A stretch of 63,200 bases of DNA, filler included, from Craspedostauros australis (Eukaryota), in NCBI GenBank assembly GCA_030167865.1. It is 6 parts of 6 records of this genome, joined end to end, with 100 filler letters (N's around TTAATTAATTAA, not from the genome) between each part and the next. Parts side by side here need not be neighbours in the genome. Positions count along the whole stretch, not along the records: positions 1 to 12,388 come from JALAGF010006186.1; 5 more parts are not named here. The stretch is one strand, 5' to 3'. Of this stretch, positions 1 to 61,783 are shown one piece after another. Position 1 is the stretch's first letter; every line of letters begins with the position of its first letter. A program made the translations under genes and the position numbers. The notes under the pieces were generated by a model. It was given only the letters and a program-made list of their open reading frames with translations. It searched no databases and had not been told where the DNA came from.

Positions 1-1449
1 ATCTTCACCTTCGCGGATGGTGGAAAGATGGGAGCCGTGGTTGTAGCTGGCACCAACGACGTTCTCTGCCAGTCCGTATGCTGCAACGAACCAGTCCTTG
101 CGCAAGCCATACGAACAGAATGCGTCAGAGAAGCGCTTTTCTGTGTCAAGCCGGATTGGCTCTGCAGCGTTCTGGAGATGAAGCAGATTGGAGAGATCCA
201 GCTTGTGGGTAAGTTCTGCTTTGGTCTCGTTGAACTTGCGGGTGACCAACCGATAGGCAAAGTCGGGAGCGGCACNNNNNNNNNNNNNNNNNNNNNNNNN
301 NNNNNNNNNNNNNNNNNNNNNNNNNCGGATGAATGAGACCGGTGATGTCATGTGGACACGGAAGGCGCCTGCCAATGGCGTGACGGCCATTTGGATAAGG
401 CCCATGTCATGGTACTGCGGCAACCAAGAGCATATGGCGATGCGCTTTGGGATTTCGCTCGTATCACCCAGCTGGTCTTGGAACGAAGCGAACCACTGGC
501 TCTGTGTGAGCTCGATGTTGGCCCGCAGTGCATCATGAGTCACCATGACGCCCTTGGGGTTGCCAGTACTCCCGGATGTGTACTGGAGGAAGGCCAGATC
601 CGATCCTGCGATGTTTGGTTCATCGAAGGAAGGTGGCGGCGACGAGGAGCGGCCAGAGATGAGGCTGGAAAGGAAGCCTTTCTTGGCTTGCTTGGAGCTG
701 TTGCTGTTGCTCTTGTTTTTGTTGATGATGAACGGATCGTGACGGATGATGCGATCGGTGACTTGGTACTTCACCCCGCTTGGCCACATGGACCGGCTTT
801 TGGATGTTGGGTTGGCACGATCGGCGGCTCGAAGGAGGTTGATGGATGTCTGAGTGAGGATGAGTGCCGGAGAGCAATCTTTGATCACCTTGTTCATCTT
901 GGTGAGCGACTTGACGAGCGGTGGTCCCGGAGGGTAGACCAACACGGCTGTCACTCCTGCACGGAGGCATCCCAGGAAGATGGCGAAGAAGTGCAGACCG
1001 AAGTCGTAGCAGAGGACGACACGATCACCTTTGTTGACATCCCATTTGTTGCGAAGGAGGTGGGCACAGTGCCCCGCTTCGTCCCAGAGCTGTTGGAAGG
1101 TGTAGTTGTTGATTGCCTTTCCCTTGTCGTTGTACCAAGTGGAGAAGACGGTGTCAGACTTGAGTTCGACGATGAACTTGATGTGGTCGATGAAGGACTT
1201 GTTTTGGATGGATTTGTGGATGACGTCATGCTCGCTGATAACAGCAGTGTTGCTGTCGTTGGACGAAATCAACGTCGTTGGTGCCTGCGACGGAGGCAAT
1301 GATCGTGTCTCCCCGATGCCTGGTTTGACATCATCGGTGATGTCTGGCGCAGGAGAGTCCTTGTCATTGCCATTGGATTTGTTGGATGCGGTTGTTGCGA
1401 CATCGCCGGTATTGTCTTCGGCTGTTTGGTTACGGTCGTCGTCGCGCAT
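1..1449 (-). CDS. 5' part of a FAAL-type adenylation enzyme, paralogue of 6173-10876; runs off the window edge
   Basis: Manual minus-strand translation from ATG at 1449: MRDDDRNQ...EHDVIHKSIQNKSFIDHIKF...LAFLQYTSGSTGNPKGVMVTH...SWLPQYHDMGLI...NAAEPIR...YGLAEN. DNA 1-1230 is near-identical to about 9440-10670. No intron seen; N-gap at 276-325. Confidence 0.9.
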   Translation of the reverse strand, partial: MRDDDRNQTAEDNTGDVATTASNKSNGNDKDSPAPDITDDVKPGIGETRSLPPSQAPTTLISSNDSNTAVISEHDVIHKSIQNKSFIDHIKFIVELKSDTVFSTWYNDKGKAINNYTFQQLWDEAGHCAHLLRNKWDVNKGDRVVLCYDFGLHFFAIFLGCLRAGVTAVLVYPPGPPLVKSLTKMNKVIKDCSPALILTQTSINLLRAADRANPTSKSRSMWPSGVKYQVTDRIIRHDPFIINKNKSNSNSSKQAKKGFLSSLISGRSSSPPPSFDEPNIAGSDLAFLQYTSGSTGNPKGVMVTHDALRANIELTQSQWFASFQDQLGDTSEIPKRIAICSWLPQYHDMGLIQMAVTPLAGAFRVHMTSPVSFIXXXXXXXXXXXXXXXXXXAAPDFAYRLVTRKFNETKAELTHKLDLSNLLHLQNAAEPIRLDTEKRFSDAFCSYGLRKDWFVAAYGLAENVVGASYNHGSHLSTIREGED

Positions 1450-2710
1450 GATGGAAGGTTGGTGCGTTTGGTACGACTACTTGTGTCAGCAGGAAACGTG
1501 GAGTGTGTTTGCGCTGTTCCTCCAGTTTGTGAGCATCCGCCACAAGTGCGGAAGTTGTGCGTCGAGGAAGAGCGAACCTTGGCACGCTTGATGGATGTAC
1601 GGGGAAATGACCCCCGTTTTGACATCGCAGCGCACAGGGAGTGCCCAGTTGGCGCTTTTCGCGATCAGCGCGGAAGGGGATCATGACTGGTCCTTGTGAA
1701 CCCAAGAGCATTTATGTCTCGTGTCGGTTGTTGGCAATAACATCCCGGACAAACTGTCATTGGAAGCGTGAATGAAGTGCGTTGTGCCCGCATCGATTCC
1801 CAGTTTGTTGCTCGTTCCTTCATGTCGCTGCGCCATCTTCGCCCCATCGCAAATAAATTCCACCAGATCGATCGCAGAATGAGAATGAGACGTGCGAGAC
1901 TTCATTGGTGTTTTTGGGAATTGATCTGTTCGTCCGCAACGATCAATACCGGCATGTCTCGTTCTTGCTTCTGACAAAGAGTACTTAGGTATGGTGCTTC
2001 TACCGTGCTCGTGCCGTGGCTCGTGCTGACAGCGACGAACTGTTCCTCACCATCAGCGACAACTCGCTCAGAAAGTGAGCAGTGTGGAAGTTTGTCGGAA
2101 GTTTGTTGGAAGTGTCTCGTGTTCACGATTGTCAGCGCAACCACACAAGGCTCACAAGCGACCACGCAAGCGAGCTTTCCAACTTTGTCCGAAATAGAGC
2201 CACATCAATTGAAAAAACAGATTCCACGGTCCGTCATTGGTCTACAGTCCTGTCCGTTTCATAAGTCCGACAATAAATGGAGGATTGCTGTTATCCACAT
2301 CAAGAACACTCTATCTCGAGTCTCGCTTTTCTTTTGTTCACGATTCAAGAGACACACAAATCAAAAGAACACGATGACCATTCGTCACGGCAACACGATG
2401 GGCGGCGATGCTTGTGGATACGGTTTCGACTCATTCGATTGGCAAAGTGCAGCGAAAATCAGAACACGAGGCAGAATTTGACACATCCTTCGCATGATCC
2501 CCAACGCCAACGCTCCAGAGAGAGACATGCTCATACAACAACGTTCAAGGAAGCACATGCCTACGGCTACACATACCGCATGCGATACCATAGGCCGTAC
2601 CGTACATAAGAATCACAGCATAGTACCCACTCTCTTTCTCTCTACGAGTAGCTCGGACACCTACCATCCAAGCAACAGACCATCAAGTAAAATCAAAGGC
2701 GAGAACGACA

Positions 2711-4924
2711 ATGGAAAAGGTGTCCCCTTTGATCCGTCCGCGGACCCTCGAGGAGCTATGTGCGCAGGCCAGCTTGCCATTGGAGTTGGTGCTGGATGCA
2801 TCCGAAGAAGAATGGCAAGAGATCTCTCTGAAGGTGTTTCGCAACAGCATCGTCGAGCACGCCAAACTGTCTCTCGTTCGCACGAACCTGAGAATCCGTT
2901 GGAAGAACGGGAAGGCAACTCAGCCCACGCCACCACAGCAACAGGATCGCGGTGAGAGCGATGAAGTGCCGATGCCCCATGCTGACGACAGCAACAGCGA
3001 GAGGAAAGGAGAGCGCCAGATTGGGAATGGCCGTGGAGATGACAGCAAGAGCGAAGATGAGGATGCGGATGACGTGGACCATCAACATGGAAATGGAAAC
3101 GAGATTGAACGTGAGTGGAAGAATGAGAGAGGGGGCGACAGGAACCCCGGAGGCAAGGGCAGGGACACGTCACCGATCGTCACTCCTGCCAAGAACGCAG
3201 GCATCGCTGCCAGAAGGAGCTACGGGACTCCTCACACTCAAAACATGCAGCAGAGTCCACAACCGACTCTGGTTCTCGATTCACAAAGACACAAACCGAG
3301 GACGCCGGCATCCCCATCAACATCAAGGCATTCAGATGGACGAAAGAGAGCATCCAACCAAATATCAAGGTCCCCATCCCAAGAGTGCGCACGTGGAGCT
3401 GGATCGCACAAGAAACAACGCTGTCGTGCCGAATCAGGTAGTCAGCCACGAGATGCTGCGTCAGCGGCACCGTCACATCCAGACATATCTCCTGATGATC
3501 AGCCGACCTCTTCACAATGCGCCGCAGGAAGTCATGAAAACAGCAAAGCACCATCGCCCAAGCGAACCAGCAAAGAGAAAGAGGGTGCTGCAAACAGTTC
3601 CGTGCGCAAGGCTAGCCACAAGACATGCGCTTCAACCAGCACTTCGCGCGCAGTGCCAGCTTTCTCAAAGTCCATGTCAGCGTCAATGACAGCATCTTCG
3701 CCCCTTTCAAACTTCAACATCTTTCACATTGATATCTTTGGCGATATACTTGGTGCATACATGACAACCCGCAAGGCTGCACAGATAACTCAAATTCCAG
3801 AGAACAAGATCATTGAATCCTGTGAGAAGCGGACGGACCTTGGCAACATTGCCTTTCGTTACAACGGTGATCAACACCTGATCCCCAGGGGCGGCAATGA
3901 AGAGGTGATCGTTCTAGGGAGCCACACTGCACAGGCGCCAATAAAAGCTCACCGCCAGCATTACCCTCCCCATGGCAAAAGGAAAAACCAAAAAGAGGCG
4001 CCGGCGAAGAACGCGCACTCCGACAAGAAGACGTGCGGACGAGAGAAGCACACACGTGGGAAAGGAGGATGCCTCATCTCACACCTCAACTGGAAACCTG
4101 ATAGTTTCTTGCGACGGTTGTTCCGGCGGATGCCTCCACTCCAAAACGCACCCTCTGAAGAGGTCTTGAAGGCGTGCGGTAAAGGGATGGCTTTGAATTT
4201 ATTCGGAGAGACTGTTTGGAAATTGCTCAAAACGCAGTATGGATGGCTCCATGAGTGTCAATACAAAAGTATTCGGTTGGTGTATCGTGAGCCTCAAACG
4301 AGCGGCGGCAGGTCGTTCTCGTCGCGCGCTGCAGTTTTGTATCACCTGCTCACATCGCCGAAATGGCAATCCAGACCGGATCTCCGGGCCGCGACGGCGT
4401 TAGTTCTTTCCGATATGTCGACTATGCTGGAGGAACTGGCCGAGAGTGACCATGACTCCAATCCTTCGTCGGACACGGAGTCAAAGGATCGACCAACTCT
4501 GGATGATTCCGGCGACCATGATTTCGCTTACATCAGAATCAAGCGTCGGGATATCCAACCGGAAGAAATAGAGCAGATGGCCACTGATAGCGGCTGGTCG
4601 GTGTTTCTAAATGAAGATGGGATGCCATCCGTCCGCAAAAAGCGAAAAGAGCGCCATTGCATCTTTGGCCTTTACCTTTCTGGCCAAGAAGATTCAGACC
4701 GCCCCGCCGAGCGTAGAGTCGCAGCGGCTGCTCCAGCAGCCACCCCGGTAATCATGCCCCCAAAGAGACCAGCCCAAGACATAGGAATGAAGTCAGCTCC
4801 AGTGCCTGGGAACCGACTGGCGACGGCCAATCTCCCGCGTCAACGACGGCACCATGATCAACCGATGTCATCCAGAGATGACACATTTAACAGTGAATCT
4901 CCCACTCTCGAACGCGCAAACTGA
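2711..4924 (+). CDS. 737-aa, largely disordered protein with a NUMOD1-like HTH motif and an MBD-like segment; probably nuclear DNA-binding
   Basis: Long ATG-initiated ORF. IFHIDIFGDILGAYMTTRKAAQITQIPENKIIESCEKRTDLGNIAFRY (~3718-3862) resembles NUMOD1/IENR1. YGWLHE...VYREPQTSGGRSFSSRAAVLYHL (~4228-4350) resembles an MBD fold. Basic NLS-like stretches (RKKRKER). Confidence 0.6.
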   Translation: MEKVSPLIRPRTLEELCAQASLPLELVLDASEEEWQEISLKVFRNSIVEHAKLSLVRTNLRIRWKNGKATQPTPPQQQDRGESDEVPMPHADDSNSERKGERQIGNGRGDDSKSEDEDADDVDHQHGNGNEIEREWKNERGGDRNPGGKGRDTSPIVTPAKNAGIAARRSYGTPHTQNMQQSPQPTLVLDSQRHKPRTPASPSTSRHSDGRKRASNQISRSPSQECARGAGSHKKQRCRAESGSQPRDAASAAPSHPDISPDDQPTSSQCAAGSHENSKAPSPKRTSKEKEGAANSSVRKASHKTCASTSTSRAVPAFSKSMSASMTASSPLSNFNIFHIDIFGDILGAYMTTRKAAQITQIPENKIIESCEKRTDLGNIAFRYNGDQHLIPRGGNEEVIVLGSHTAQAPIKAHRQHYPPHGKRKNQKEAPAKNAHSDKKTCGREKHTRGKGGCLISHLNWKPDSFLRRLFRRMPPLQNAPSEEVLKACGKGMALNLFGETVWKLLKTQYGWLHECQYKSIRLVYREPQTSGGRSFSSRAAVLYHLLTSPKWQSRPDLRAATALVLSDMSTMLEELAESDHDSNPSSDTESKDRPTLDDSGDHDFAYIRIKRRDIQPEEIEQMATDSGWSVFLNEDGMPSVRKKRKERHCIFGLYLSGQEDSDRPAERRVAAAAPAATPVIMPPKRPAQDIGMKSAPVPGNRLATANLPRQRRHHDQPMSSRDDTFNSESPTLERAN

Positions 4925-6172: not shown

Positions 6173-9100
6173 TCAGACACAAGCTGCTTGCGCATCGCTC
6201 ACCGTGGTAGCAGTATTGCCTAGCCCTCCTTGTTCCGCTTTTGCCGACAGTTCTTCACACGATCCATCGCTGATTGATAGCTGCGGCGGCTCCTGCGGTT
6301 GCTTCAAGCATGATGGTCCGAAATCGCCGACCATCTTGCCTGGGCCGTGCTCAATTGTGCTTGGACATGCAGTTTGGGTTGTTGGTACGCTCCGAGTCAA
6401 TGTAAAGCATCTTTGATGCATGATACCATCGATGTAGCATTTTCCCAGAGTGATCGTTGAGAATGTGCCGTAATGGCCAGAGATGCTTGATTCGTCCACC
6501 ACGGCCCCATCACCAAATATCATCAGAGAAGTTTCGTACACTCGAAATCCAAAGTACAGCAATCTTCCCTGTACATCTGCACCCTGGAGTCGGAGCACTG
6601 TATTCATCATTGGCGTGCCCCACAAAAGCGACACGAAGGACCAGACTTGGACCGAGTAGCACAAGGATTGGTAGACCATGTACAATGGGACGCACCATAG
6701 TTCGGTGCGGTTCCCACTTCCCGCGAGCGTGACTAGCTCAACTGCTCGCAACAGGATGAGCCAAACGACGGTCTGGATGACGACGCACGCTACAACGACC
6801 GGCACCGCACCCAACGGCGTCTGTGGCTTGATGACATTCATCCACAGCTCGAATGCTGGAATGAAGCTGGCAGCGACCATGACCAGCATGATGATGTGCA
6901 GGATCGTGTTCAGGAGGACGATCCATATCAACTCCCAACCTGTGACAAGTTCATTTCTCGGGTCGTGTCGATCGTGGACCAGGTTGGTGGTGACATACGT
7001 GGCTGGAGACACTAGGGATTTGCTGACCGTCACGCCTGGGCTGCAGACCACGTTCAACCCGATGCTGCTGTCTTCAACCTTGATGGCTTTGTATTGGCCA
7101 TCCTGTTTGATGTCGAAGGTAGATTTGGACACGAAGGATCGTTTGACTGTGATGAGGTCCAGCTGAGATGGAAGGAAGGCATGTGCTGCGACATGCGATC
7201 GGAGATCAATGTCCATCCCGAATGCCAAGAGGATGACATTCCAAATCGATGAGTGAAACGTCAATCCATATAGCACGGCGCCTCCGATGCTGTAGTGGAA
7301 GTCACAAGCCCAACTGGCAAGTTCCGACGGCACACTCTGACATGCAGGGCCTGGCCGTTTTTTGCCGATTATAATCCATTTCAAGATGATGCTGGAAACG
7401 ATGAAGAATGTGGAAGTTAGACCAATGGAAGTAATCCAATAGAGCAGCCTCGCATACCTCCAGTCTGGCAACTCATCCCGGACCAGGATATCGACCACCA
7501 GAAAGCAGGTGAAAGCGAAGTAAAGTTCCACCAGCAACCACAGCATTTTCATCGCACCCAATATGATCCATCTGCGATTACCCGCGTTGGAATGTGTGGT
7601 GGGGCGAGTTTCGCTTGTCGTCATCTCCAGACTGTCATTGTTACTGCCAGCGTCTGCGTCTGTGGCTCCATGCGTGCGTGTGGAATGAATGAAGCCTGGA
7701 TTGCCGCGGATGGTAGTGTTGGGCGGTGCTTGTGCTCCTTCCACCAGCACAGACGTGCGAGAGACTTGGCAGTTGGACCCANNNNNNNNNNNNNNNNNNN
7801 NNNNNNNNNNNNNNNNNNNNNNNNNNNNNNNAAGAATGCCCTTGATGTCTGCACTTGCTCCAACTTGGATCGTGCGGAATCTCAAGGTGGGGCCTTGGCA
7901 GCCGTCTTTGCACGGGCCGAACATGCGACACCGGATACCCTCGCTCACCGTGGCATCGGGACCGATATCCACGAGATCGAACTCACGGATGAATGCATCG
8001 ATGCTCGATGATGCATGCACATTCGCTCCCATCAAGTAATCGAAGAACGCCAACAATGGGGTGCCCATGATGAAGCGTCCAAGGAAGCTCTCCCAGATGT
8101 GCACAAGCCGATCCACGAACCACCATCGAAGAAAGTAAATGTCGGTCTGACTGATGTACCCCTCTCTGTATCTGCCAATGACGATCCACTTTGCGAGAAT
8201 GACTTCGATAGTGAACGTGATGGCCCAGAACGGGACGACGAGTGGATACCACACCCACACGTACGGAGAGAGGTCAATGAAGAAGAGCTCGTAGGCGCGA
8301 TCGTCGTTGACCAGCACCTTCCCAATCTCGTAGGCGGGCACGATGGGAAGTGCGAACATGAAGAGGATGACGAGCACACCGACGAACTGAATGGTGGCGG
8401 ATGTGAGCGGTGCAAGCGGTTTCTCATCTAGAAAAGTGACAAGTCTCTTGAGTTTTGGAAGGCTGGTTGGCAGTGCCTGCCCAGTAGATGCCTCCAGAAA
8501 TATTTCCAAGTCTACGACTGTCGGAAATAGCTCGAAGCAGTTGGAAGGGAGAGACGTGTTGTATCGTTGAGCAAGAGACTGTCGCAGCTCGATCTCCATC
8601 ATGGATGATAGCCCAATGTCCTTCCACGTGTCTTCGGCCTTGACGTCTGCTCCAATGCAGCTCTTCACAAGCTCGCAAAAGTCTATGTCTCTGCTGTCTT
8701 CGAATTGGTCGGTGTTTCTGGTCGATATTGTTTTGGTGGACGACTTGACATCGCCATCCAGTGCAACTTGGGCGGTTGGAGTTGGGTTTGCACTGAAGTT
8801 GAATATTGCTTTCTGGTCTCCATCGCGAAGACGTTGGCGATTTTGGCGTCTCTGGATCTTGCCGCTTGTTGTTTTGGAGATGGTGCGTTCCTTGACGGCT
8901 GCGATTGTGACAGGTGTCAACCCGATGTGCTCAATCACGACCTTTCTGATCTCCTGACAGACTGTTGCGGCATCGTCTGCATGATTGACTCGGATCTCAA
9001 AGACGATCTCGAGCTGTCCATCGTTGCCGGTTTCATCAGATGAGAAGGCAGCGACACACCCTGGACGGACGGCAGATGAGGCCTCTTCAACGGCGTGCTC

Positions 9101-10876
9101 GATATCTTGCGGGTAGTAGTTGACACCATTGACGATGATGATGTCCTTCTTGCGTCCGCAGATGTAGAGATAGTCCTCTTGGTAGAATCCGTAGTCTCCT
9201 GTCCGCAAGTAGATCTTACGATCGGCATCGGATGATGAATCGCCTTGGAGTGTAGCTTGGAAGGTTTCGGCGGTGAGCTGTGGCTGATTGTAGTACCCAG
9301 CGGTCACAGAGGCCCCGGCGATCCAGATCTCTCCCGTGACGTTGTCTGGACGCTGTACTCGGGTATCCGAGTCCACGATGATGATATCGATGGAGCTGTG
9401 CAGATTTCCGCGATGTGCGATGGCGATGAATGGTTGGAGATCTTCACCTTCGCGGATGGTGGAAAGATGGGAGCCGTGGTTGTAGCTGGCACCAACGACG
9501 TTCTCTGCCAGTCCGTATGCTGCGAGGAACCAGTCCTTGCGCAAGCCATGCGAACAGAATGCCTCGGCGAATCCTTTCTCCGTGTCCAGCCGGATTGGCT
9601 CTGCAGCGTTCTGGAAATGAAGTACACTGGAGAGGTCCAGCTTGTGGGTAAGATCTTCCTTGGTCTCGTTGAACTTGCGGGTGACCAACCGATAGGCAAA
9701 GTCGGGAGCAGCACCGATGTGGCACTTGTGTTGTGACATGAGGTCAATCCAAAGCAACGGGTTGCGGATGAATGAGACCGGTGATGTCATGTGGACACGG
9801 AAGGCGCCTGCCAATGGCGTGACGGCCATTTGGATAAGGCCCATGTCATGATACTGCGGCAACCAAGAACATGTTACGAATCGCTCCGGCGTTGTCTTCT
9901 TTTCGTTTGCGCCCTTGGCGCAGCATGCAAGCCAATAGCTTTGCACGAGCTCAACGTTGGCTCTCAGTGCATCATGAGTCACCATGACGCCCTTGGGGTT
10001 GCCAGTACTCCCGGATGTGTACTGGAGGAACGCCAGATCCGATCCTGCGATGTTTGGTTCATCGAAGGAAGGTGGCGGCGACGATGAACGGCCAGAGATG
10101 ACGCTGGAAAGGAAGCCTTTCTTGGCTTGCTTGGAGCTGTTGCTGTTGCTCTTGTTTTTGTTGATGATGAACGGATCGTGACGGATGATGCGATCGGTGA
10201 CTTGGTACTTCACCCCGCTTGGCCACATGGACTGGCTTTTGGATGTTGGGTTGGCACGATCGGCAGCTCGAAGGAGGTTGATGGATGTCTGAGTGAGGAT
10301 GAGTGCCGGAGAGCAATCCTTGATCACCTTGTTCATCTTGGTGAGCGACTTGACGAGCGGCGGCGCCGGAGGGTAGACCAACACGGCTGTTACTCCTGCA
10401 CGGAGGCATCCCAGGAAGATGGCGAAGAAGTGCAGACCGAAGTCGTAACAGAGGACGACACGGTCCCCTTTGTTGACGCTCCATTTGTTGCGAAGGAGGT
10501 GGGCACAGTGCCCCGCTTCGTCCCAGAGCTGTTGGAAGGTGTAGTTGTTGATTGCCTTTCCCTTGTCGTTGTACCAAGTGGAGAAGACGGTGTCAGACTT
10601 GAGTTCGACGATGAACTTGATGTGGTCGATGAAGGACTTGTTTTGGATGGATTTGTGGATGACATCGTGCTCAGTGGCGTTGGCATCACAGTTGAGGCGA
10701 CTCAATGTTTGGCCCTTGTCTGGTGACGACTGCATGGTGTCAGCTGTGATATCCATGGCGTCGATATCCATATGAGGACTATTGGTAGCCTGAGCCGCTG
10801 CCAAGGCAGAGGTATTTGGTACATGAGGCATATCCATGGTAGCTGTGGCTTCAGTATCCACAATCAAAGGAAACAT
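6173..10876 (-). CDS. NRPS-like membrane synthetase: FAAL-type adenylation domain + phosphopantetheine carrier domain + Pls/PosA-like C-terminal region (TM helices and three repeats)
   Basis: Adenylation motifs FLQYTSGSTGNPKG, SWLPQYHDMGLI, AAEPIR, YGLAE, GEIWIAG, YLRTGD, GRKKDIIIVNGVNYYPQDIE, KTTSGKIQR. Carrier motif DIGLSSMM near 8605. Then AKWIVIGRYREG..RWWFVDRL..GTPLLAFFDYLMGANV, LKWIIIGKKRPG, LWGTPMMNTVLRLQGADV, each with hydrophobic helices and hexapeptide-like repeats. 50-N gap at 7792-7841. Confidence 0.85.
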   Translation of the reverse strand: MFPLIVDTEATATMDMPHVPNTSALAAAQATNSPHMDIDAMDITADTMQSSPDKGQTLSRLNCDANATEHDVIHKSIQNKSFIDHIKFIVELKSDTVFSTWYNDKGKAINNYTFQQLWDEAGHCAHLLRNKWSVNKGDRVVLCYDFGLHFFAIFLGCLRAGVTAVLVYPPAPPLVKSLTKMNKVIKDCSPALILTQTSINLLRAADRANPTSKSQSMWPSGVKYQVTDRIIRHDPFIINKNKSNSNSSKQAKKGFLSSVISGRSSSPPPSFDEPNIAGSDLAFLQYTSGSTGNPKGVMVTHDALRANVELVQSYWLACCAKGANEKKTTPERFVTCSWLPQYHDMGLIQMAVTPLAGAFRVHMTSPVSFIRNPLLWIDLMSQHKCHIGAAPDFAYRLVTRKFNETKEDLTHKLDLSSVLHFQNAAEPIRLDTEKGFAEAFCSHGLRKDWFLAAYGLAENVVGASYNHGSHLSTIREGEDLQPFIAIAHRGNLHSSIDIIIVDSDTRVQRPDNVTGEIWIAGASVTAGYYNQPQLTAETFQATLQGDSSSDADRKIYLRTGDYGFYQEDYLYICGRKKDIIIVNGVNYYPQDIEHAVEEASSAVRPGCVAAFSSDETGNDGQLEIVFEIRVNHADDAATVCQEIRKVVIEHIGLTPVTIAAVKERTISKTTSGKIQRRQNRQRLRDGDQKAIFNFSANPTPTAQVALDGDVKSSTKTISTRNTDQFEDSRDIDFCELVKSCIGADVKAEDTWKDIGLSSMMEIELRQSLAQRYNTSLPSNCFELFPTVVDLEIFLEASTGQALPTSLPKLKRLVTFLDEKPLAPLTSATIQFVGVLVILFMFALPIVPAYEIGKVLVNDDRAYELFFIDLSPYVWVWYPLVVPFWAITFTIEVILAKWIVIGRYREGYISQTDIYFLRWWFVDRLVHIWESFLGRFIMGTPLLAFFDYLMGANVHASSSIDAFIREFDLVDIGPDATVSEGIRCRMFGPCKDGCQGPTLRFRTIQVGASADIKGILXXXXXXXXXXXXXXXXXGSNCQVSRTSVLVEGAQAPPNTTIRGNPGFIHSTRTHGATDADAGSNNDSLEMTTSETRPTTHSNAGNRRWIILGAMKMLWLLVELYFAFTCFLVVDILVRDELPDWRYARLLYWITSIGLTSTFFIVSSIILKWIIIGKKRPGPACQSVPSELASWACDFHYSIGGAVLYGLTFHSSIWNVILLAFGMDIDLRSHVAAHAFLPSQLDLITVKRSFVSKSTFDIKQDGQYKAIKVEDSSIGLNVVCSPGVTVSKSLVSPATYVTTNLVHDRHDPRNELVTGWELIWIVLLNTILHIIMLVMVAASFIPAFELWMNVIKPQTPLGAVPVVVACVVIQTVVWLILLRAVELVTLAGSGNRTELWCVPLYMVYQSLCYSVQVWSFVSLLWGTPMMNTVLRLQGADVQGRLLYFGFRVYETSLMIFGDGAVVDESSISGHYGTFSTITLGKCYIDGIMHQRCFTLTRSVPTTQTACPSTIEHGPGKMVGDFGPSCLKQPQEPPQLSISDGSCEELSAKAEQGGLGNTATTVSDAQAACV

Positions 10877-12432
10877 TTGCTTGACTTCAGTTTTTTATGT
10901 TGAGATTTAAATTTGATTGAGGCAGCAGTCGTGGTGGCAGTCGAGTAGTGAAGACGACGGCGGTGATGATCATGCCGATGGTCTATCTGGCTCGCTCTGT
11001 GCTGATCGGGAATTGCTCCCAAGTCATGTCCGAAGGGATGTGGTCGTGTCGATGACATTTTAGTCATGGTCGGTACTTGGGAGAGAATGAAACAGGGAAC
11101 AGGACCCTGCATACTCGTGCATGTTGTACCTCTCGATACAACCTCTCTGTATTTTTGAATAAACGCGTTCCCACAGAGTGCATAAATAACGTTCGTTGGT
11201 ACCAGCGGATGCCTGTTCTCAAAAAATATTCTATGTCGCAGTTCCATTGTGTCGAGAACTGAGGTACTGGTTGGAAAATTGCTCACTCCACGGAGGGGAC
11301 AACAACCAGTGATGAATTCGCTCTTTCGAACAATTTGACAACGCTGTCTCGGTTGAAGGGAGCAGCCACACGCATACACAACTTCATGTGACAACAGAGC
11401 ATGGCGTTGGTAGAGTGGCAGAAAAGGCATCATCCCAGATGCGAAGACTGGCGCAGCACAGCGCCCATCGACGTCAGCTCAGCGTGGGTTTATTTCAATG
11501 ACCAGCACACCTTGTGCCATGAGAATGCCCAAACGCGTTGCGAATGGATTTTGATCAAGTCTCAAAGCATCCACGATCCAGGAATCAACACGCTCCAAAA
11601 TTTCAACAATGCTCCTTGTGTGTTAATCCTGGACCCAAACACGGCGATGGATCCGGATCGATCGTGGATCCGGATGGCCATCGCACAACCGAGCACACCA
11701 TCGGAGTACGATCGCGACCCAAGACCGAGCTATCAATAACACGGTGCATCGCGGTAAATCAAACTGAATGAGGATGATCACGACGGATAACACGGGAGAT
11801 GCTGCTGACCCTGCAACTTGGAATCTGACAGAACAACATCTCATCATCAGCTCATGATCCGCAAGTTCAATCAACTCTACAACCAACTAATCGACAAATA
11901 ACGATTACAATTTAACCTCCAAACCAGAGCCCACGATCTCACCACTACACACGCCAGGCTAACAGTGCTGACATCTGGAACCAAAGTCACACTCAGATGT
12001 CATAAGCTCTTGGCGTCATGGCTTGAATCATCGCTGAAGCCGCACGCCGAGCCTCTTGAGGTTCTCCCTGGCCTGCTGTCTCTTCCAGGCCCTGCTCTGA
12101 AGATATGATCGCTTCGCTGCCTTGGCGCGTTGTACCATGTCAGCCGTGAGGTTGACGGGATTGTGATTCGTTCGGGAAGTTGCTTGCCTGTCCGATTTCT
12201 CGGGTTCCGACCGTTTGCTCGCTTGCGACTGTTGTCGTTGTTGGCACTTCACGGTTGCGGATGAATTGGTTGCGTTTGAGTTCCTCTGTGTGGATGCAGG
12301 CGGCGTCGATCGCCGAGGGGGCGTCACAACATCATCGTTGAGGTCCCAATGTGTTCGTTGGCGATACGGATCATCTTCTACCCATGCTNNNNNNNNNNNN
12401 NNNNNNNNNNNNNNNNNNNNNNNNNNNNNNNN

Positions 12433-12444
12433 TTAATTAATTAA
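12433..12444. other. Artificial scaffold-joining spacer TTAATTAATTAA
   Basis: 12-mer with stops in all six frames, flanked by N runs; identical copy at five places in the window. Confidence 0.95.
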
Positions 12445-12488
12445 NNNNNNNNNNNNNNNNNNNNNNNNNNNNNNNNNNNNNNNNNNNN

Positions 12489-14846: not shown

Positions 14847-14890
14847 NNNNNNNNNNNNNNNNNNNNNNNNNNNNNNNNNNNNNNNNNNNN

Positions 14891-14902
14891 TTAATTAATT
14901 AA
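14891..14902. other. Artificial scaffold-joining spacer TTAATTAATTAA
   Basis: Same 12-mer inside N runs. Confidence 0.95.
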
Positions 14903-14946
14903 NNNNNNNNNNNNNNNNNNNNNNNNNNNNNNNNNNNNNNNNNNNN

Positions 14947-26851: not shown

Positions 26852-27454
26852 TCATAACGTTGTGGATGCACCTGCCAAGCCACCCATTTCAAGAAAGTTG
26901 GTCTTGACCAGCGTCTTCATACCCCGGAACGTCGGCCGATGCTTGGGAAGGACGGCGACGGCATCGAATTCACCGACCTGGATGAGACCTTCGTCGAGGT
27001 CCAGCTCCACTGGCTCTTGCGTCCGCGCCTTGTAGCACACCACATCGACATCGACACCTTGCTCCGGCTTGCCGAACTTGATGACGTAGCCCTCCATCGC
27101 TTTGGCCAGCTTGATGAACTGGCACCAGCCCGAAAAGTACTTACGCCGGTTCTGATCGCCGCCCGCGATGCCCTTGATCAATTCCACGCGACCGCCGGCC
27201 TGGCGGAACTTGAAGCCCTGGATGCTGCGTCCCTTGCCGGAGCAGAAGAAGCCGATGGCGTTGGAGGGGATGGGTCCCCTGCTGTAGTACAATACCAGCC
27301 GTCCGCCCGACGAAGGTTCGAAGGTGAGGTAGCAGCCTTCGGGCCCGTCGTCCGCCAGGATGAAGGCCTGCTTGCTGGATGATGATGCTGACAGAACGAC
27401 TCCATCCGCGATGGTCGCGGCCGTATGGGGTGATGTGGGTGAGGAGCTCGTCAT
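26852..27454 (-). CDS. ~200-aa protein resembling the apicomplexan immune mapped protein (IMP1/IMP2) domain
   Basis: GCYLTFEPSSGGRLVLYYS..AIGFF..FKFRQAGGRVELI..RRKYFSGWCQFIK, recalled as similar to IMP2_N; GC3-rich coding; probable ATG at 27454. Confidence 0.55.
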   Translation of the reverse strand: MTSSSPTSPHTAATIADGVVLSASSSSKQAFILADDGPEGCYLTFEPSSGGRLVLYYSRGPIPSNAIGFFCSGKGRSIQGFKFRQAGGRVELIKGIAGGDQNRRKYFSGWCQFIKLAKAMEGYVIKFGKPEQGVDVDVVCYKARTQEPVELDLDEGLIQVGEFDAVAVLPKHRPTFRGMKTLVKTNFLEMGGLAGASTTL

Positions 27455-28171
27455 GTCGTTGCTGTTGCTGGTTGGTGTTGCCTGATCGGATGCGCCGGTA
27501 TGCCAGTACAGCAGAGCAGAGTCGAGTCGAGTACGAGGTTGGGCTGTTTGTTTGTTGATGCTCCCGATGGATGCTCTTTGCAAGTTGCAAGTTGTGAACT
27601 GTGAGTTCCTTGTGGCTTGTGAGTAATGCGTTGGCACCACAAAAGAACACAAATCACTTCTTCGGCAAAACAATGCAAAAGAAGGATACACACGCACCTG
27701 GCATCGCCAGAGAGTCCACATCACGGCCACGACCGCGGCAACAGAGAGTAGTAAGTCGAAGGTGCATGAAGTCTTTGTGGTGGCGCCAAACGAATCCAAA
27801 AGCCGCCAACAGGGAGTTTGGATTTGAAAATGACACGGAATCCTGATCCATATAACCGTTATTTACCTGCCACATGACCACCCGACCGGTTCGACCTATT
27901 CCTGGCAGAAATGCTGCCAACAAGTGGTTGGTGGCAAATTTCGACAAACGCTCGCACTCACAACAACAAATCAAAACCAGGAAAGAGGAATGAAAGAACA
28001 AAATTTCGAACCTCTGTTTCCTCCATCTCTGCCTCTTTTGTGATGCATCTCCATCTCACAAAATCAGATCATCACTGGATCCAAACAGCAACAGCAACAA
28101 AACACAACGACAAGCACACGCATACTCATCTGCACATACTCGCAAAGTATCCATCACAACCGACGTTCAAA

Positions 28172-40644: not shown

Positions 40645-40688
40645 NNNNNNNNNNNNNNNNNNNNNNNNNNNNNNNNNNNNNNNNNNNN

Positions 40689-40700
40689 TTAATTAATTAA
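40689..40700. other. Artificial scaffold-joining spacer TTAATTAATTAA
   Basis: Same 12-mer inside N runs. Confidence 0.95.
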
Positions 40701-40744
40701 NNNNNNNNNNNNNNNNNNNNNNNNNNNNNNNNNNNNNNNNNNNN

Positions 40745-41992
40745 GGAGAGCACGCACCATGGTGCCAAACGTGCGATTCAGGCGTTCGACTTTGCCATTC
40801 ATCCAGGCACAGTCCGCACCCGTAGGTTTGACGGTGTAGCCGCATTCCTGCACCATGGTGCTGAACTGCCCGGACCGCGCAAGCTCTCCACCCAAGTCCA
40901 CACGCACAGCGCGGTAGCCATGTTGGCGTCCAAAAGAGGTGAGCACTTGGCGTACAGCCATGAGTGGCGGCGACTTGTCCTTGGTTGGAAAAACCCAAAC
41001 GTAGCAGGTCCATGCGTCCACAACAAGGAGGTATGCGCAGAAGCCGTCGACTGACCGCACCACTCGTTGTGTGTCCTTGGTGCGACGCTGCTGACCGTAG
41101 GAACTGTCAGAGGCCCGCATAAAGCCGAAGTCGATGTGGAACCGTGCGCCAGCAACATTCGCGGTGGCGACGTCAGCTGGCCCACGATTGGCGTGTTGAT
41201 AGCCAGCTTGACTGCACACATCGCAATGACGAAGCGGATGCAAGTGTCGTGTGACATCAGGTGGAATGCCGCTGGAGCACTTGACCAGCTTCTGGAGTTG
41301 TCCGACGCCCACATGACCCAGCCGCATATGCCACAGCTCCGTCACCAGCGCCTTGGATGCGACTCGTGCGGCCATAGCGCGGGGTGATGGTCCGCCAAAG
41401 AAGTAGAGGCCGTTGCGAATGAGCAGTGGAATGCGTAGGTCGCGCTGGGGCGAACGGAATACGATGAAAGCGTCACGAGACGTAGACTCGATGCCAAACC
41501 CGTCGAAGCTGTTGTCGGTCTGTCGGATGATGGCCTGTGGCGACACAAGAGTGTCAGCAAGCAGAGGGCATAGGAGCATGCGAACACTGAGGTCTTCACC
41601 GTCGCCGCACTGGATGCATGCGTATCCCGCACCAGGGCATGGCATGGCCGGCGACGAAGAGTCCGCAGCTGCCAGCATCGACGGTGTACCAAAAGGCACG
41701 TACCGCTTCAGCAGCGCAGCATGCGGCGTGGCACACACGTTGGCTCCCAAGTCGCACTGTCCCTTGACGCGATCTCGCCAATCGGAACTAGCGCAACCCG
41801 CGAGCGCGTGTGCGCGGAGCAGGACTGTCGTGGACATAACGAACGGTCTCAGCTCGGTTGGACGATTGCGTCCACAGGCAGCGTCGAGCGGAGATGCATC
41901 GCCAAGAGGCGTGCCTGTATGCATCCCGCGATCATGACCAGGGGCCTTGTACCGCTCACCAGGGAGTTGGTCTACTCCTGGCCGGCAAGCAC
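40745..41992 (-). CDS. pol: Pol (protease-integrase part) of element A, -1 frame relative to gag
   Basis: Frame is open from the GGATTTT heptamer (CACRPGVDQLPGER...MHTG...) to the gap; integrase HHCC and DDE motifs. Confidence 0.85.
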
Positions 41993-41999
41993 AAAATCC
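41951..41999 (-). promoter_or_regulatory. Putative -1 programmed ribosomal frameshift signal
   Basis: Minus strand: G_GAT_TTT (41999-41993), spacer GTGCTT, hairpin GCCG-GCCAG-GAGT-AGACCA-ACTC-C-CTGGT-GAG-CGGT. Confidence 0.75.
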
Positions 42000-43651
42000 T
42001 GGAAGAGAATTTGGGCCGTGCGGTCAAAAGCCTCACCATCACCGTCGCTGGTGCCGTCAGAGCCGTATTCCTCACGCACCATCTTGACGGCCCGTGCAAC
42101 TGTGCGCGAACGGTCACGGGAGTAGGCCTCCTTGTACGCCACCAGGACCTTCTTGGCCAGGTCAGGCTTCTCCTCGCGAAGCTCTGCGAACGCGAGGTCG
42201 CGCGCCCACGGCAAGCATGTCCCAGAACGGTGCCCTGGCCGGCGGCAGGCCTTGCAGAACGCGTCCTTGTCTGGCTGGTAGAAAGCCGACTTCTTGCGCT
42301 CCTCACAACGGCCGCCACCTCGGTTGTCACGCGTGAAGGACCGAGTCTGCGCGCGATGCTCAACAGGCTTGACAGGCGCAGTGGGGTCCCCACGGATGGT
42401 GCGGGCCAAAGTTGACACGTGGAGATGAGGTGGAACTCGACGAGCGCCAGGCACCAGTTCAAGAGACGTCAGGTGGTGCTCGACAGGCACGCCTTGCGAG
42501 CGGAGCCCTTCAAGGAACCGACGAGTGAGTTCCACGTCAGTGACCACACGCTGGTGTACAACTCCCTCTGTCTGTTGGAACTCGAGGAGAGCGTTGGCAT
42601 ACTGGACAACGTCGTTGAAGTCACTGTACACAGGCGCTTGGCTCACAGTGTTCTTGACCCGCATGTACGCATCCAACAGGAGCTGGTGTAAGAACACGAA
42701 GGACAATAGCCAATGAGGCAAGATCCTGAAGCTCCCAGCGTAGAACATGCTGAGGGATGGATGACCCAGGTCGAGCACACCGGATTGCTGTAGCTTCTGC
42801 TCAAGCAACCGACCAGCGCGGAAGACTTGTGCTCTCGAAGCGCCTTTCGGAAAGACCAAGCAGGCGGGGTTGAAAGCTGAGAGAGGGCAGATGTGCGCCT
42901 CAACGTTGGCAGCCTCACTCTGGAGCTGCGTGTACCACTTGAGGACGCTGGTGGGATCGTCCACCTCAAGCTTGACCTCCCAGCGCTGCCAGAAGCCAAG
43001 CGAATCGCGGTCAGGCTCGATGGGCGACTGCACAGCAACGTAGTGAAAGTGCTGGAGCACAGCGGGGTTGTTCTTCGCCATGGAGTAGGAAAGGCCTGAA
43101 TTGGTGATGTAGTCAGCGGCCTCCGCGCCGTCTTCGCCAACCTGGAACGGACTGTTGGTGGTACCGGTGCCAGCCTGGAAGTCGTGAGCAGGGGCAATAC
43201 CCTGATCAACACGCGGGGTTTCCACGCTGGGAGCGTCACCCGTAGGGCCAGGGTGTTCAGCGACACCTTCGCTTGCGCCTGTGCGCGCAGTAGGCTTGCC
43301 GTCAGCAACGTCCGCGGTATCCGGAGGCAAAGCGGGGTCTTTGGGAACGGGGGCAGCGAACTTGCGAATGTCGCTGCGCGTGAGAGTGGGAAACCACTTG
43401 TCGTAGTCTGGATGCGCCAAGGCGTAGGCGCGGAGCCGCTGCATCCCGAAACGCCTGGTGGATGACCCCTGCTTCCAAGCATCAAAGAGCTGGTCGAAGT
43501 AAGCATCGGGGGCGTCAAGGAAATCGTAGAATTCACCGTCAGTGTTGACCCGTGTCTGTTTCGAGAAATCATCGAGCCATTGCCAGTTGAATCGGTCAAA
43601 AAGGGCACGAGTGACCTTTAAGTGATCGACTTGCTCAGTGGTGTCAGCCAT
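41972..43651 (-). CDS. gag: Gag of Copia element A (559 aa)
   Basis: Intact ORF with CX2CX4HX4C near the C-terminus; homologous to 56938-58035. Confidence 0.85.
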   Translation of the reverse strand: MADTTEQVDHLKVTRALFDRFNWQWLDDFSKQTRVNTDGEFYDFLDAPDAYFDQLFDAWKQGSSTRRFGMQRLRAYALAHPDYDKWFPTLTRSDIRKFAAPVPKDPALPPDTADVADGKPTARTGASEGVAEHPGPTGDAPSVETPRVDQGIAPAHDFQAGTGTTNSPFQVGEDGAEAADYITNSGLSYSMAKNNPAVLQHFHYVAVQSPIEPDRDSLGFWQRWEVKLEVDDPTSVLKWYTQLQSEAANVEAHICPLSAFNPACLVFPKGASRAQVFRAGRLLEQKLQQSGVLDLGHPSLSMFYAGSFRILPHWLLSFVFLHQLLLDAYMRVKNTVSQAPVYSDFNDVVQYANALLEFQQTEGVVHQRVVTDVELTRRFLEGLRSQGVPVEHHLTSLELVPGARRVPPHLHVSTLARTIRGDPTAPVKPVEHRAQTRSFTRDNRGGGRCEERKKSAFYQPDKDAFCKACRRPGHRSGTCLPWARDLAFAELREEKPDLAKKVLVAYKEAYSRDRSRTVARAVKMVREEYGSDGTSDGDGEAFDRTAQILFQDFVLAGQE

Positions 43652-44133
43652 GATGTCAACGAAAAAAGAAAAGAGAGAACGCGGAAAGCGATCGAAGCGA
43701 GGAGCGAAGAGAGGAACGAGGAGCTGCGCCTGGATGGGTATTTCCNNNNNNNNNNNNNNNNNNNNNNNNNNNNNNNNNNNNNNNNNNNNNNNNNNCCCCT
43801 GCTTCCAAGCATCAAAGAGCTGGTCGAAGTAAGCATCGGGGGCGTCAAGGAAATCGTAGAATTCACCGTCAGTGTTGACCCGTGTCTGTTTCGAGAAATC
43901 ATCGAGCCATTGCCAGTTGAATCGGTCAAAAAGGGCACGAGTGACCTTTAAGTGATCGACTTGNNNNNNNNNNNNNNNNNNNNNNNNNNNNNAAAAAAGA
44001 AAAGAGAGAACGCGGAAAGCGATCGAAGCGAGGAGCGAAGAGAGGAACGAGGAGCTGCGCCTGGATGGGTATTTCCTATTGCAGAGAGGGTGACGAAGTT
44101 TATGTGGATGGTCTTCCTGTGGAAGCGTATTTC

Positions 44134-44142
44134 CTCATAACC
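44134..44142 (-). promoter_or_regulatory. Primer-binding site GGTTATGAG, complementary to the initiator tRNA-Met anticodon stem-loop
   Basis: Directly follows the LTR end ...TCATCACA on the minus strand; pairs with CUCAUAACC of tRNA-iMet. Confidence 0.75.
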
Positions 44143-44282
44143 TGTGATGATTGGGAGACGATACGGATGTGTTGTGTGTGTGTGATGATGTGAGATTATT
44201 ATGGATACTCTGATTGTCTCCGCAGAGGCTGTGAACATGGGATTTGCTGCTGCTCCGTCTGTCATCCGACCGTGTACCAACA
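44143..44282 (-). repeat. 5' LTR of element A (~140 bp)
   Basis: Starts TGTTGG and ends CA next to the PBS; its start coincides with the end of homology to the element-B LTR. No second copy in the window. Confidence 0.65.
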
Positions 44283-44594
44283 GAACCTGATGATTGATCG
44301 AATCTGATGGAATATTCACAACATATTTCATTCCTGTAGACCTGGTAGTTAAGGTCTCAATGTGACGTCACGTGTGATGGATACTGTGGTATCCGCTGGT
44401 ATCGCGGTATCCTGTCATCGTAATATCGCAGTATCCTCGTGGTATCTCGGTGGTATCGCTGTGACGTCATAGTTTTGGGTCGTGATTCCGCCACCAAATA
44501 TTCTGGATGATGGCGCGCAAGTGTGACTGATNNNNNNNNNNNNNNNNNNNNNNNNNNNNNNNNNNNNNNNNNNNNNNNNNNACACATTCCGACA
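44283..44594 (-). repeat. 3' LTR of element B (gap inside; last ~4 nt displaced by element A)
   Basis: Begins TGTCGGAATGTGT right after the PPT; reverse-complement homologue of 46875-47157. Confidence 0.85.
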
Positions 44595-49474: not shown

Positions 49475-49649
49475 TTTGAGAGGTTGCAGGACGATTGGCG
49501 CTGGATTGGCTGTCGAGGAGGTGTGTTGTCTGAGCTATCTGTGGCAGAGATATCGATCGTTTGTCTTCAATAACTTGTTTAATTATGAGTACCATGCAAT
49601 GAGTGGCAATTCGATGTCTGTTGCTGATGTGCTCGAGTATGGGGTTGAG

Positions 49650-56770: not shown

Positions 56771-56814
56771 NNNNNNNNNNNNNNNNNNNNNNNNNNNNNN
56801 NNNNNNNNNNNNNN

Positions 56815-56826
56815 TTAATTAATTAA
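56815..56826. other. Artificial scaffold-joining spacer TTAATTAATTAA
   Basis: Same 12-mer inside N runs. Confidence 0.95.
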
Positions 56827-56870
56827 NNNNNNNNNNNNNNNNNNNNNNNNNNNNNNNNNNNNNNNNNNNN

Positions 56871-61683: not shown

Positions 61684-61727
61684 NNNNNNNNNNNNNNNNN
61701 NNNNNNNNNNNNNNNNNNNNNNNNNNN

Positions 61728-61739
61728 TTAATTAATTAA
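61728..61739. other. Artificial scaffold-joining spacer TTAATTAATTAA
   Basis: Same 12-mer inside N runs. Confidence 0.95.
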
Positions 61740-61783
61740 NNNNNNNNNNNNNNNNNNNNNNNNNNNNNNNNNNNNNNNNNNNN

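What the first reader, a model, noticed from the sequence alone, without database searches (positions are those of the whole stretch)
6173..10876. FAAL-carrier-Pls-like membrane synthetase in a eukaryotic alga
Seen: one apparently intronless 1567-aa ORF with a FAAL-type adenylation domain, a carrier domain (GLSSM), and three units of TM helices plus KW..IG/GTP..L..GA and hexapeptide-like repeats. No condensation, thioesterase or reductase domain is recognisable. Known: adenylation-carrier-(TM/C-like)x3 is the layout of Streptomyces epsilon-poly-L-lysine synthetase and related homopoly(amino acid) synthetases (TIGR02353 terminal domain), which use an amino-acid adenylation domain. Inference: a FAAL in that position would load a fatty acid, possibly hydroxy- or amino-substituted, for transfer or polymerisation at a membrane. 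That points to an uncharacterised lipid or polymer pathway, possibly of bacterial origin. The product is unknown.
Basis: partly seen in the sequence, partly recalled or inferred. Interest (0 to 1): 0.8.

Follow-up and report, generated by a model that had tools for sequence, protein, structure and literature searches.

The report
Expanded diatom fatty-acyl membrane synthetases
This diatom gene is one of dozens of copies in its genome that join a fatty-acid-activating unit and a carrier to a membrane domain known only from polylysine-making enzymes, so it probably attaches fatty acids to a membrane-side partner, or chains them, without using coenzyme A; the product is unknown.

Summary
The ORF is real (6173-10876, minus strand). 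The N gap is at 7782-7831; paralogues show it stands for about 17 bases, so the frame holds and the protein is about 1556 aa. Order: FAAL (best structural match a cyanobacterial FAAL, Z 45.8), carrier (invariant Ser758), three homologous membrane-hairpin plus left-handed beta-helix units homologous to the Pls/PosA terminal domain (profile E 3e-46, but far under the TIGR02353 cut-off). Only unit 3 keeps the histidine (His1468) shared with bacterial Pls-family proteins. The genome is a diatom's and holds about 40 matches, at least 16 distinct among 19 compared, under purifying selection and apparently mosaic; a second copy lies 4.7 kb away. The layout recurs in Seminavis, Chaetoceros, brown algae, pelagophytes, chlorarachniophytes and a choanoflagellate, so recent bacterial transfer is not supported. 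Best reading: a CoA-independent membrane acyltransferase with one active site (0.55); rival: a polymerase of hydroxy/amino fatty acids (0.25). No description of the architecture turned up in my literature searches; this scan noted the same core layout before in a fungus.

The parts
6173..10876 (-). Whole ORF: FAAL - carrier - (membrane hairpin + left-handed beta-helix) x3; about 1556 aa once the gap is sized
   Evidence: dN/dS 0.07-0.35 against 18 paralogues
8792..10651 (-). FAAL adenylation domain (residues 76-695)
   Evidence: NCBIfam FAAL models E 2e-88 to 9e-68, under their cut-offs; PDB best hits FAALs; model pLDDT 89.8, best matches 7r7f Z 45.8, 3kxw Z 45.4, 3pbk Z 42.6
9875..9964 (-). 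Variable segment after the P-loop (residues 305-334), swapped between paralogues; possibly tunes acyl-chain choice (inference)
   Evidence: 46-61% mean pairwise identity against 87-93% in the flanking bins
8477..8689 (-). Carrier domain (residues 730-800); predicted phosphopantetheine site Ser758 at 8603-8605
   Evidence: PF00550 19.4 bits, under the 20.8 cut-off; Ser in 72 of 72 aligned rows with a residue; carrier fold Z 8-10
7697..8413 (-). Unit 1 (residues 822-1060): membrane hairpin, interfacial helices, longest beta-helix; Arg984 where unit 3 has His
   Evidence: (maltose O-acetyltransferase-like, Z 10.4-10.5, rmsd 3.4, about 150 aligned)
7782..7831 (.). Assembly gap, 50 N standing for about 17 bases
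6977..7585 (-). Unit 2 (residues 1098-1300): membrane hairpin and beta-helix, no His at the equivalent site
6341..6949 (-). Unit 3 (residues 1310-1512): membrane hairpin and short beta-helix; His1468 at 6473-6475, the proposed catalytic base
   Evidence: His in 69 of 72 rows with a residue, including 7 of 7 Pls-type rows; starts the hairpin that interrupts the beta-helix in the model
1..1449 (-). Tandem second copy, 5' part of the FAAL, running off the contig end
   Evidence: 80% identical over 465 aa counting its X run, nearly identical except the variable segment

Best explanation
A single-chain, CoA-independent membrane acyltransferase. The FAAL adenylates a free fatty acid (domain identity shown by sequence and model; substrate inferred) and loads it on phosphopantetheine at Ser758 (site inferred). 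The carrier delivers the thioester to a pseudo-trimer of three beta-helices standing on six membrane helices (fold predicted). Only one of the three inter-helix clefts has a histidine; His1468 activates a hydroxyl or amine of a separate membrane-side acceptor (lipid, sterol, glycan or amine), which takes the acyl chain (inferred from LbH acyltransferase chemistry). The many paralogues pair different FAAL pockets with different transferase ends and so probably make a range of acylated products.
For: FAAL identity, with the CoA-blocking residues and helix at the same spacing as EcFAAL. Invariant carrier Ser; two phosphopantetheinyl-transferase matches in the genome. Terminal region homologous to Pls-family proteins; three homologous units; model pLDDT 91.8, pTM 0.91 agrees with the published PosA model; nearest solved folds are LbH acyltransferases, whose catalytic His lies in a loop protruding from the helix at a subunit interface. 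An ordinary fatty acid has no second nucleophile and this protein has no tailoring domain, so it needs an outside acceptor. Purifying selection in all domains.
Against: All characterised relatives named in the papers I read are polymerases. No acceptor is identified; neighbours of the paralogues differ from locus to locus and give no pathway. The FAAL-specific insertion is 14 residues shorter than in 7r7f.
Confidence: 0.55

Rival explanations
1. A Pls-type polymerase for lipids: the FAAL loads a hydroxy- or amino-fatty acid and the terminal domain joins monomers head to tail into an estolide, polyester or polyamide that leaves through the membrane helices.
For: Same layout and same His as Pls-family proteins, all characterised members of which polymerise. 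Relatives carry flavin oxidoreductase or ketosynthase domains that could create a second functional group (P0010, P0020, P0052, P0139, P0132).
Against: This protein and most relatives have no tailoring domain. The terminal domain scores 62.5 bits against a TIGR02353 cut-off of 423 and has its own conserved charged residues (D922, E929, R964, E965, R984, K1110, E1343) absent from 7 of 7 Pls-type rows. FAALs are known mainly as loaders of plain acyl chains.
Confidence: 0.25
2. Same relay, but the acid activated is not a fatty acid (an aryl, keto or other small acid).
For: FAAL-like folds that take other acids rank close behind: keto-acid domain 6uly Z 41.1, McyG 4r0m Z 40.5. The insertion is short and the pocket-side segment varies.
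Against: The eight best structural matches and the twelve best sequence matches are FAALs or FAAL-type FadD enzymes.
Confidence: 0.12
3. The terminal domain is mainly a membrane anchor or hydrolase, and the acyl group goes to CoA, water or a partner enzyme in trans.
For: Short FAAL insertion; deletion of it gives weak CoA activity in other FAALs. His1468 is replaced in 3 of 47 close homologues.
Against: His and many polar residues are conserved across distant eukaryotes and Pls-type proteins; dN/dS 0.18-0.35 in the terminal domain; the CoA-blocking helix is present.
Confidence: 0.08

Closest known systems
Pls/PosA family homopoly(amino acid) synthetases (Streptomyces epsilon-poly-L-lysine synthetase Pls, Acinetobacter PosA; NCBIfam TIGR02353)
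   Same: Adenylation - carrier - three (membrane hairpin + left-handed beta-helix) units, no condensation or thioesterase domain; homologous over all three units; shared His in unit 3.
   Different: FAAL instead of an amino-acid adenylation domain; score far under the family cut-off; unit 3 lacks KW..IG and is shorter; separate clade; multi-copy in a eukaryote; no polymer shown.
Fatty acyl-AMP ligases (Synechococcus olefin synthase FAAL 7r7f, Legionella 3kxw, E. coli 3pbk)
   Same: Fold, 27-34% identity in structural alignments, CoA-blocking residues and helix, fused carrier.
   Different: Followed by a Pls-like membrane domain instead of PKS/NRPS modules; shorter FAAL-specific insertion.
Left-handed beta-helix acyltransferases (maltose O-acetyltransferase, serine acetyltransferase, NeuO)
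   Same: Beta-helix with a protruding hairpin bearing a His; three helices per active assembly.
   Different: Three different units in one chain, one His instead of three, membrane hairpins, donor is a tethered carrier and not acetyl-CoA.
Uncharacterised plant FAAL proteins between HemY and catalase or amino-acid oxidase domains (PMC8460268)
   Same: Eukaryotic multi-domain FAAL proteins without PKS/NRPS, function unknown.
   Different: The window protein has neither oxidase nor catalase domain. That the plant proteins also carry beta-helix repeats is my recall; no named plant protein appeared in my searches, so kinship is untested.

Membership tests
Pls/PosA family | Adenylation + carrier + terminal domain of three membrane/beta-helix units, no C or TE domain | tested here: met
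Pls/PosA family | TIGR02353 score at the curated cut-off (423 bits) | tested here: not met
   62.5 bits, E 2.5e-17
Pls/PosA family | Amino-acid (diamino acid) adenylation domain | tested here: not met
   TIGR01733 142 bits against cut-off 317; FAAL models score 187-297; structure closest to FAALs
Pls/PosA family | Conserved His of the third unit (QTH in Pls-type rows) | tested here: met
   His1468 aligned, 69 of 72 rows; its catalytic role is inferred
Pls/PosA family | Makes a homopolymer | not testable with these tools
   needs enzyme assay
FAAL | Closer to FAALs than to acyl-CoA ligases or NRPS A domains | tested here: met
   (FAALs Z 41-46; acyl/aryl-CoA ligases at most 39.2)
FAAL | Bulky residues and FAAL-specific helix blocking the CoA pocket (EcFAAL W224, M231, F279, T252-R258; P226) | tested here: met
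   W338, P340, M345, F393 and a modelled helix at 366-371 lie at the same offsets; mapped by spacing, no residue-level alignment to 3pbk was seen
FAAL | FAAL-specific insertion | tested here: inconclusive
   14 residues shorter than 7r7f after residue 469, equally short in the relatives shown
FAAL | Transfers acyl to holo-carrier and rejects CoA | not testable with these tools
   needs assay
Carrier protein (PP-binding) | Four-helix carrier fold with conserved Ser | tested here: met
   Z 8-10; Ser 72 of 72; Pfam score 19.4 is under the 20.8 cut-off and the usual Asp before the Ser (recalled) is Ser here
LbH acyltransferases | Catalytic His in a loop protruding from the beta-helix | tested here: inconclusive
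   position fits; searches gave no residue-level match to a solved catalytic His

The most novel reading that the evidence does not exclude
Diatoms and other protists make a so far unrecognised class of fatty-acyl polyesters, estolides or lipid amides with a Pls-type membrane polymerase fed by a FAAL, and this diatom diversifies them by recombining FAAL and transferase modules among dozens of paralogues, for use at the cell surface (wall coat, adhesion or defence).
Probability: 0.2. Interest if true: 0.85.

Novelty: new variant of a known kind. Interest (0 to 1): 0.62.

Why it matters
A 2026 survey found that diatoms have the most FAALs per genome among eukaryotes (16 in Seminavis robusta) and named only FAAL-PKS fusions for them in the section I read (PMC12820801). 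Here 21 of the 22 S. robusta-labelled proteins that my searches returned have this FAAL-carrier-Pls-like layout, so this one uncharacterised enzyme type probably accounts for most of that excess. It points to a CoA-independent lipid pathway in major primary producers, gives testable residues (Ser758, His1468), and would show whether the Pls terminal domain, for which no solved structure was found, is a general membrane acyltransferase and not only a polyamide polymerase.

Tried and rejected
Gap splits the ORF: rejected. Bacterial contaminant: rejected; the genome has 92 silicon-transporter matches, paralogues sit among eukaryotic genes, nearest named relatives are diatoms. Copy number as whole-assembly redundancy: rejected; two housekeeping probes gave 1 match each, though a few contigs are duplicates (L021 = L024). 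Pseudogene: rejected. Biosynthetic cluster: no shared neighbours among 16 flanking frames scanned. Positive selection on the variable FAAL segment: not seen, pN/pS 0.40. Solved Pls terminal domain: none found by sequence or fold; the units were not folded alone. Mapping His1468 on a solved catalytic His: no usable alignment. Expression: no RNA holder listed. Plant relatives: no named plant protein among the listed hits or the 30 clusters looked up. The first tree run did not finish; FastTree was used. Paper search was swamped by an unrelated term and says little. Earlier-findings look-ups by sequence and by place returned nothing.

Full report
Observation. I mapped its two flanks on 10 own-genome paralogues; in the 6 where both mapped they are 17 bases apart, and all 46 other rows of a protein alignment have 13 residues where the window protein has 24. 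50 and 17 share a phase, so the ORF is continuous and about 1556 aa. The window is a string of contigs joined by N-flanked linkers; the gene lies on G000:C6186, whose coordinates equal the window's and which ends at the first linker near 12388, so genes beyond that are not neighbours.

Organism and copy number. The genome has 92 matches to the silicon transporter family and the nearest named relatives are from Seminavis robusta and Chaetoceros tenuissimus: a diatom. A unit-1 probe matched 40 of 40 candidates in the genome and a FAAL probe 50 of 56, the last few weak. Two housekeeping probes matched once each. I fetched 20 of the unit-1 loci more widely; 18 gave a frame of over 1250 codons (two shorter, contig-cut frames were left out of the alignment). 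With the window gene these 19 fall into 18 groups at 97% DNA identity, 16 at 95% and 9 at 90%. dN/dS to the window gene is 0.07-0.35 in FAAL, carrier and terminal domain wherever dS could be computed. A second copy starts at window 1449 and runs off the contig. The copies lie among unrelated eukaryotic genes, with no shared neighbour among 16 flanking frames.

FAAL. NCBIfam FAAL models score E 2e-88 to 9e-68, all under their cut-offs, and the amino-acid adenylation model scores lower. A model of residues 76-700 (pLDDT 89.8) matches best the olefin-synthase FAAL 7r7f (Z 45.8, rmsd 2.2, 545 aligned), Legionella and E. coli FAALs, ahead of acyl/aryl-CoA ligases (Z at most 39.2). The CoA-blocking features given for EcFAAL in PMC8460268 (W224, P226, M231, helix 252-258, F279) recur at identical offsets: W338, P340, M345, helix 366-371, F393. 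Against this, the FAAL-specific insertion is 14 residues shorter than in 7r7f.

Carrier. Pfam PP-binding scores 19.4 bits, under its cut-off of 20.8, but the model matches carrier proteins at Z 8-10 and Ser758 is present in 72 of 72 rows with a residue. The genome has two phosphopantetheinyl-transferase matches. Modification is not shown.

Terminal domain. TIGR02353 matches at E 2.5e-17 but 62.5 bits against a cut-off of 423. A profile comparison with 8 Pls-type proteins (2 named bacterial Pls/PosA, 6 unnamed) gives probability 100, E 3e-46 over carrier and terminal region. A model of the carrier and terminal domain of paralogue L017 (94% identical there) has pLDDT 91.8 and pTM 0.91 and shows three units, each two long helices, interfacial helices and a beta-helix, as described for the PosA model (PMC10522769). 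The units are mutually homologous (probability 97.9-99.6). Nearest solved folds are LbH acyltransferases (Z 10.4-10.5 for unit 1); no solved Pls terminal domain was found. His1468 of unit 3 aligns with the QTH histidine of the Pls-type rows and is present in 69 of 72 rows; unit 1 has Arg984 there, and unit 2 no His. It begins the hairpin that interrupts the beta-helix, where LbH enzymes carry their catalytic His (PMC3046976). Two attempts to align it to a solved catalytic His failed, so the role is inferred.

Range and origin. A terminal-domain profile finds 2003 clusters at 50% identity. Named proteins with FAAL-type head and this tail come from diatoms, brown algae (Ectocarpus, Scytosiphon), pelagophytes (Aureoumbra, Chrysophaeum), chlorarachniophytes (Amorphochlora, Bigelowiella) and a choanoflagellate (Salpingoeca). 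Of 22 S. robusta-labelled proteins returned, 21 have the tail and one is a FAAL-PKS. None of the 11 newly listed, named bacterial FAAL proteins has it. A GTDB scan with two narrow patterns gave 1 confirmed locus of 24 matches, a Myxococcota protein whose adenylation domain lacks the FAAL motif by eye; this is weak negative evidence. In a FastTree tree of 69 terminal domains the window protein lies in a 22-row clade with the named diatom proteins (support 100) and the Pls-type rows with amino-acid domains form a separate 12-row clade (100); the deep branches are weak, three FAAL-type rows fall outside the main eukaryotic group, and the root is only a midpoint. So the fusion looks old in eukaryotes; its first source is unresolved. 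Some relatives add a flavin oxidoreductase, an alpha/beta hydrolase or a ketosynthase.

Mosaic paralogues. Identity to the window gene changes in blocks, and trees of FAAL, carrier and terminal parts disagree. In five triplets chosen after seeing that table, the nearest partner switches between regions with Fisher p from 5e-13 to 3e-58. The tandem copy is nearly identical but for residues 305-334, a segment that varies among paralogues without sign of positive selection (pN/pS 0.40). This suggests module exchange between copies, but chimeric assembly of similar copies could give the same picture and I could not exclude it.

Mechanism. Shown by sequence and model: domain order, homologies, conserved Ser and His, selection. 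Inferred: fatty acid to acyl-AMP to carrier thioester to His-assisted attack by a hydroxyl or amine at the one complete cleft. A plain fatty acid cannot be its own acceptor and no tailoring domain is present, so I put transfer to a separate membrane-side acceptor first (0.55), polymerisation of hydroxy/amino fatty acids second (0.25, the Pls precedent), a non-fatty acid third (0.12), and an anchor or hydrolase role last (0.08). It works like Pls in layout and probably chemistry but is not a member: the adenylation domain and the family cut-off tests fail.

Literature. Ten searches (57 was swamped) found no description of a FAAL-carrier-Pls-like enzyme; the library lacks most subscription papers. 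Seen: PMC8460268 passages, sections 7 and 10 and the first part of section 4 (plant HemY-FAAL-catalase proteins, function unknown; its figure of architectures not seen); PMC12820801 passages, section 3.1 and a search of 5 held supplement files with no hit for Seminavis, TIGR02353, LpxA or NRPS_term (its large tables may be cut or missing and could list this layout); passages of PMC10522769, PMC8506220, PMC7073580, PMC11837247, PMC3046976 and bioRxiv 10.64898/2026.02.10.704744; all others as search listings only. This scan had noted the same core layout in a fungus, with added oxygenase domains (e1-7652474), which I did not test.

Verdict. A real, selected, multi-copy diatom gene of an uncharacterised eukaryotic FAAL-carrier-Pls-like type: a new variant of a known kind, interest 0.62.

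Noticed in passing
window 1-1449 (-): Tandem second copy of the gene, cut by the contig end, with its own 50-N gap (276-325); differs from the main copy mainly at FAAL residues 305-334.
   Followed up: yes
window 12389-12488, 14847-14946, 40645-40744, 56771-56870, 61684-61783: Paired 44-N runs 12 bases apart (a TTAATTAATTAA linker where read): the window is several contigs joined, so order across them is not genomic.
   Followed up: yes
window 2624-4924 (+): 766-codon low-complexity frame between the two copies, no Pfam match.
   Followed up: partly
window 40692-46728 and 52225-61728: Pieces of copia-type LTR retrotransposons (gag, pre-integrase, integrase, RVT_2) in several frames.
   Followed up: no
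G000, many contigs: 92 matches to the silicon transporter family, about a dozen long ones: a large expansion for one genome.
   Followed up: no
L028 (G000:C6421): Copy whose frame stops early in unit 3, with the end of unit 3 about 1 kb further on, past an N gap; its carrier groups with L029 but its terminal domain with the window gene.
   Followed up: partly
G000:C5290:2077-3144: Two P-loop-region matches within one 932-codon frame, perhaps an internal duplication.
   Followed up: no
P0132, P0010, P0052, P0158: Relatives with extra domains: FAAL-carrier-ketosynthase-carrier-Pls-like (P0132); inserted flavin oxidoreductase plus C-terminal alpha/beta hydrolase (P0010); two adenylation domains plus oxidoreductase (P0052); a long insert after the carrier that looks by eye like an acyl-CoA dehydrogenase (P0158, recalled, no Pfam match at 1e-4).
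   Followed up: no
L038:3763-8181 (+): Myxococcota protein with an acyl-CoA-ligase-like adenylation domain (by eye), carrier and Pls-like tail: a third kind of head on this tail.
   Followed up: partly
window 26855-27862 (-) and 47411-49534 (-): An IMP2-domain protein and a 13-repeat ankyrin protein.
   Followed up: no
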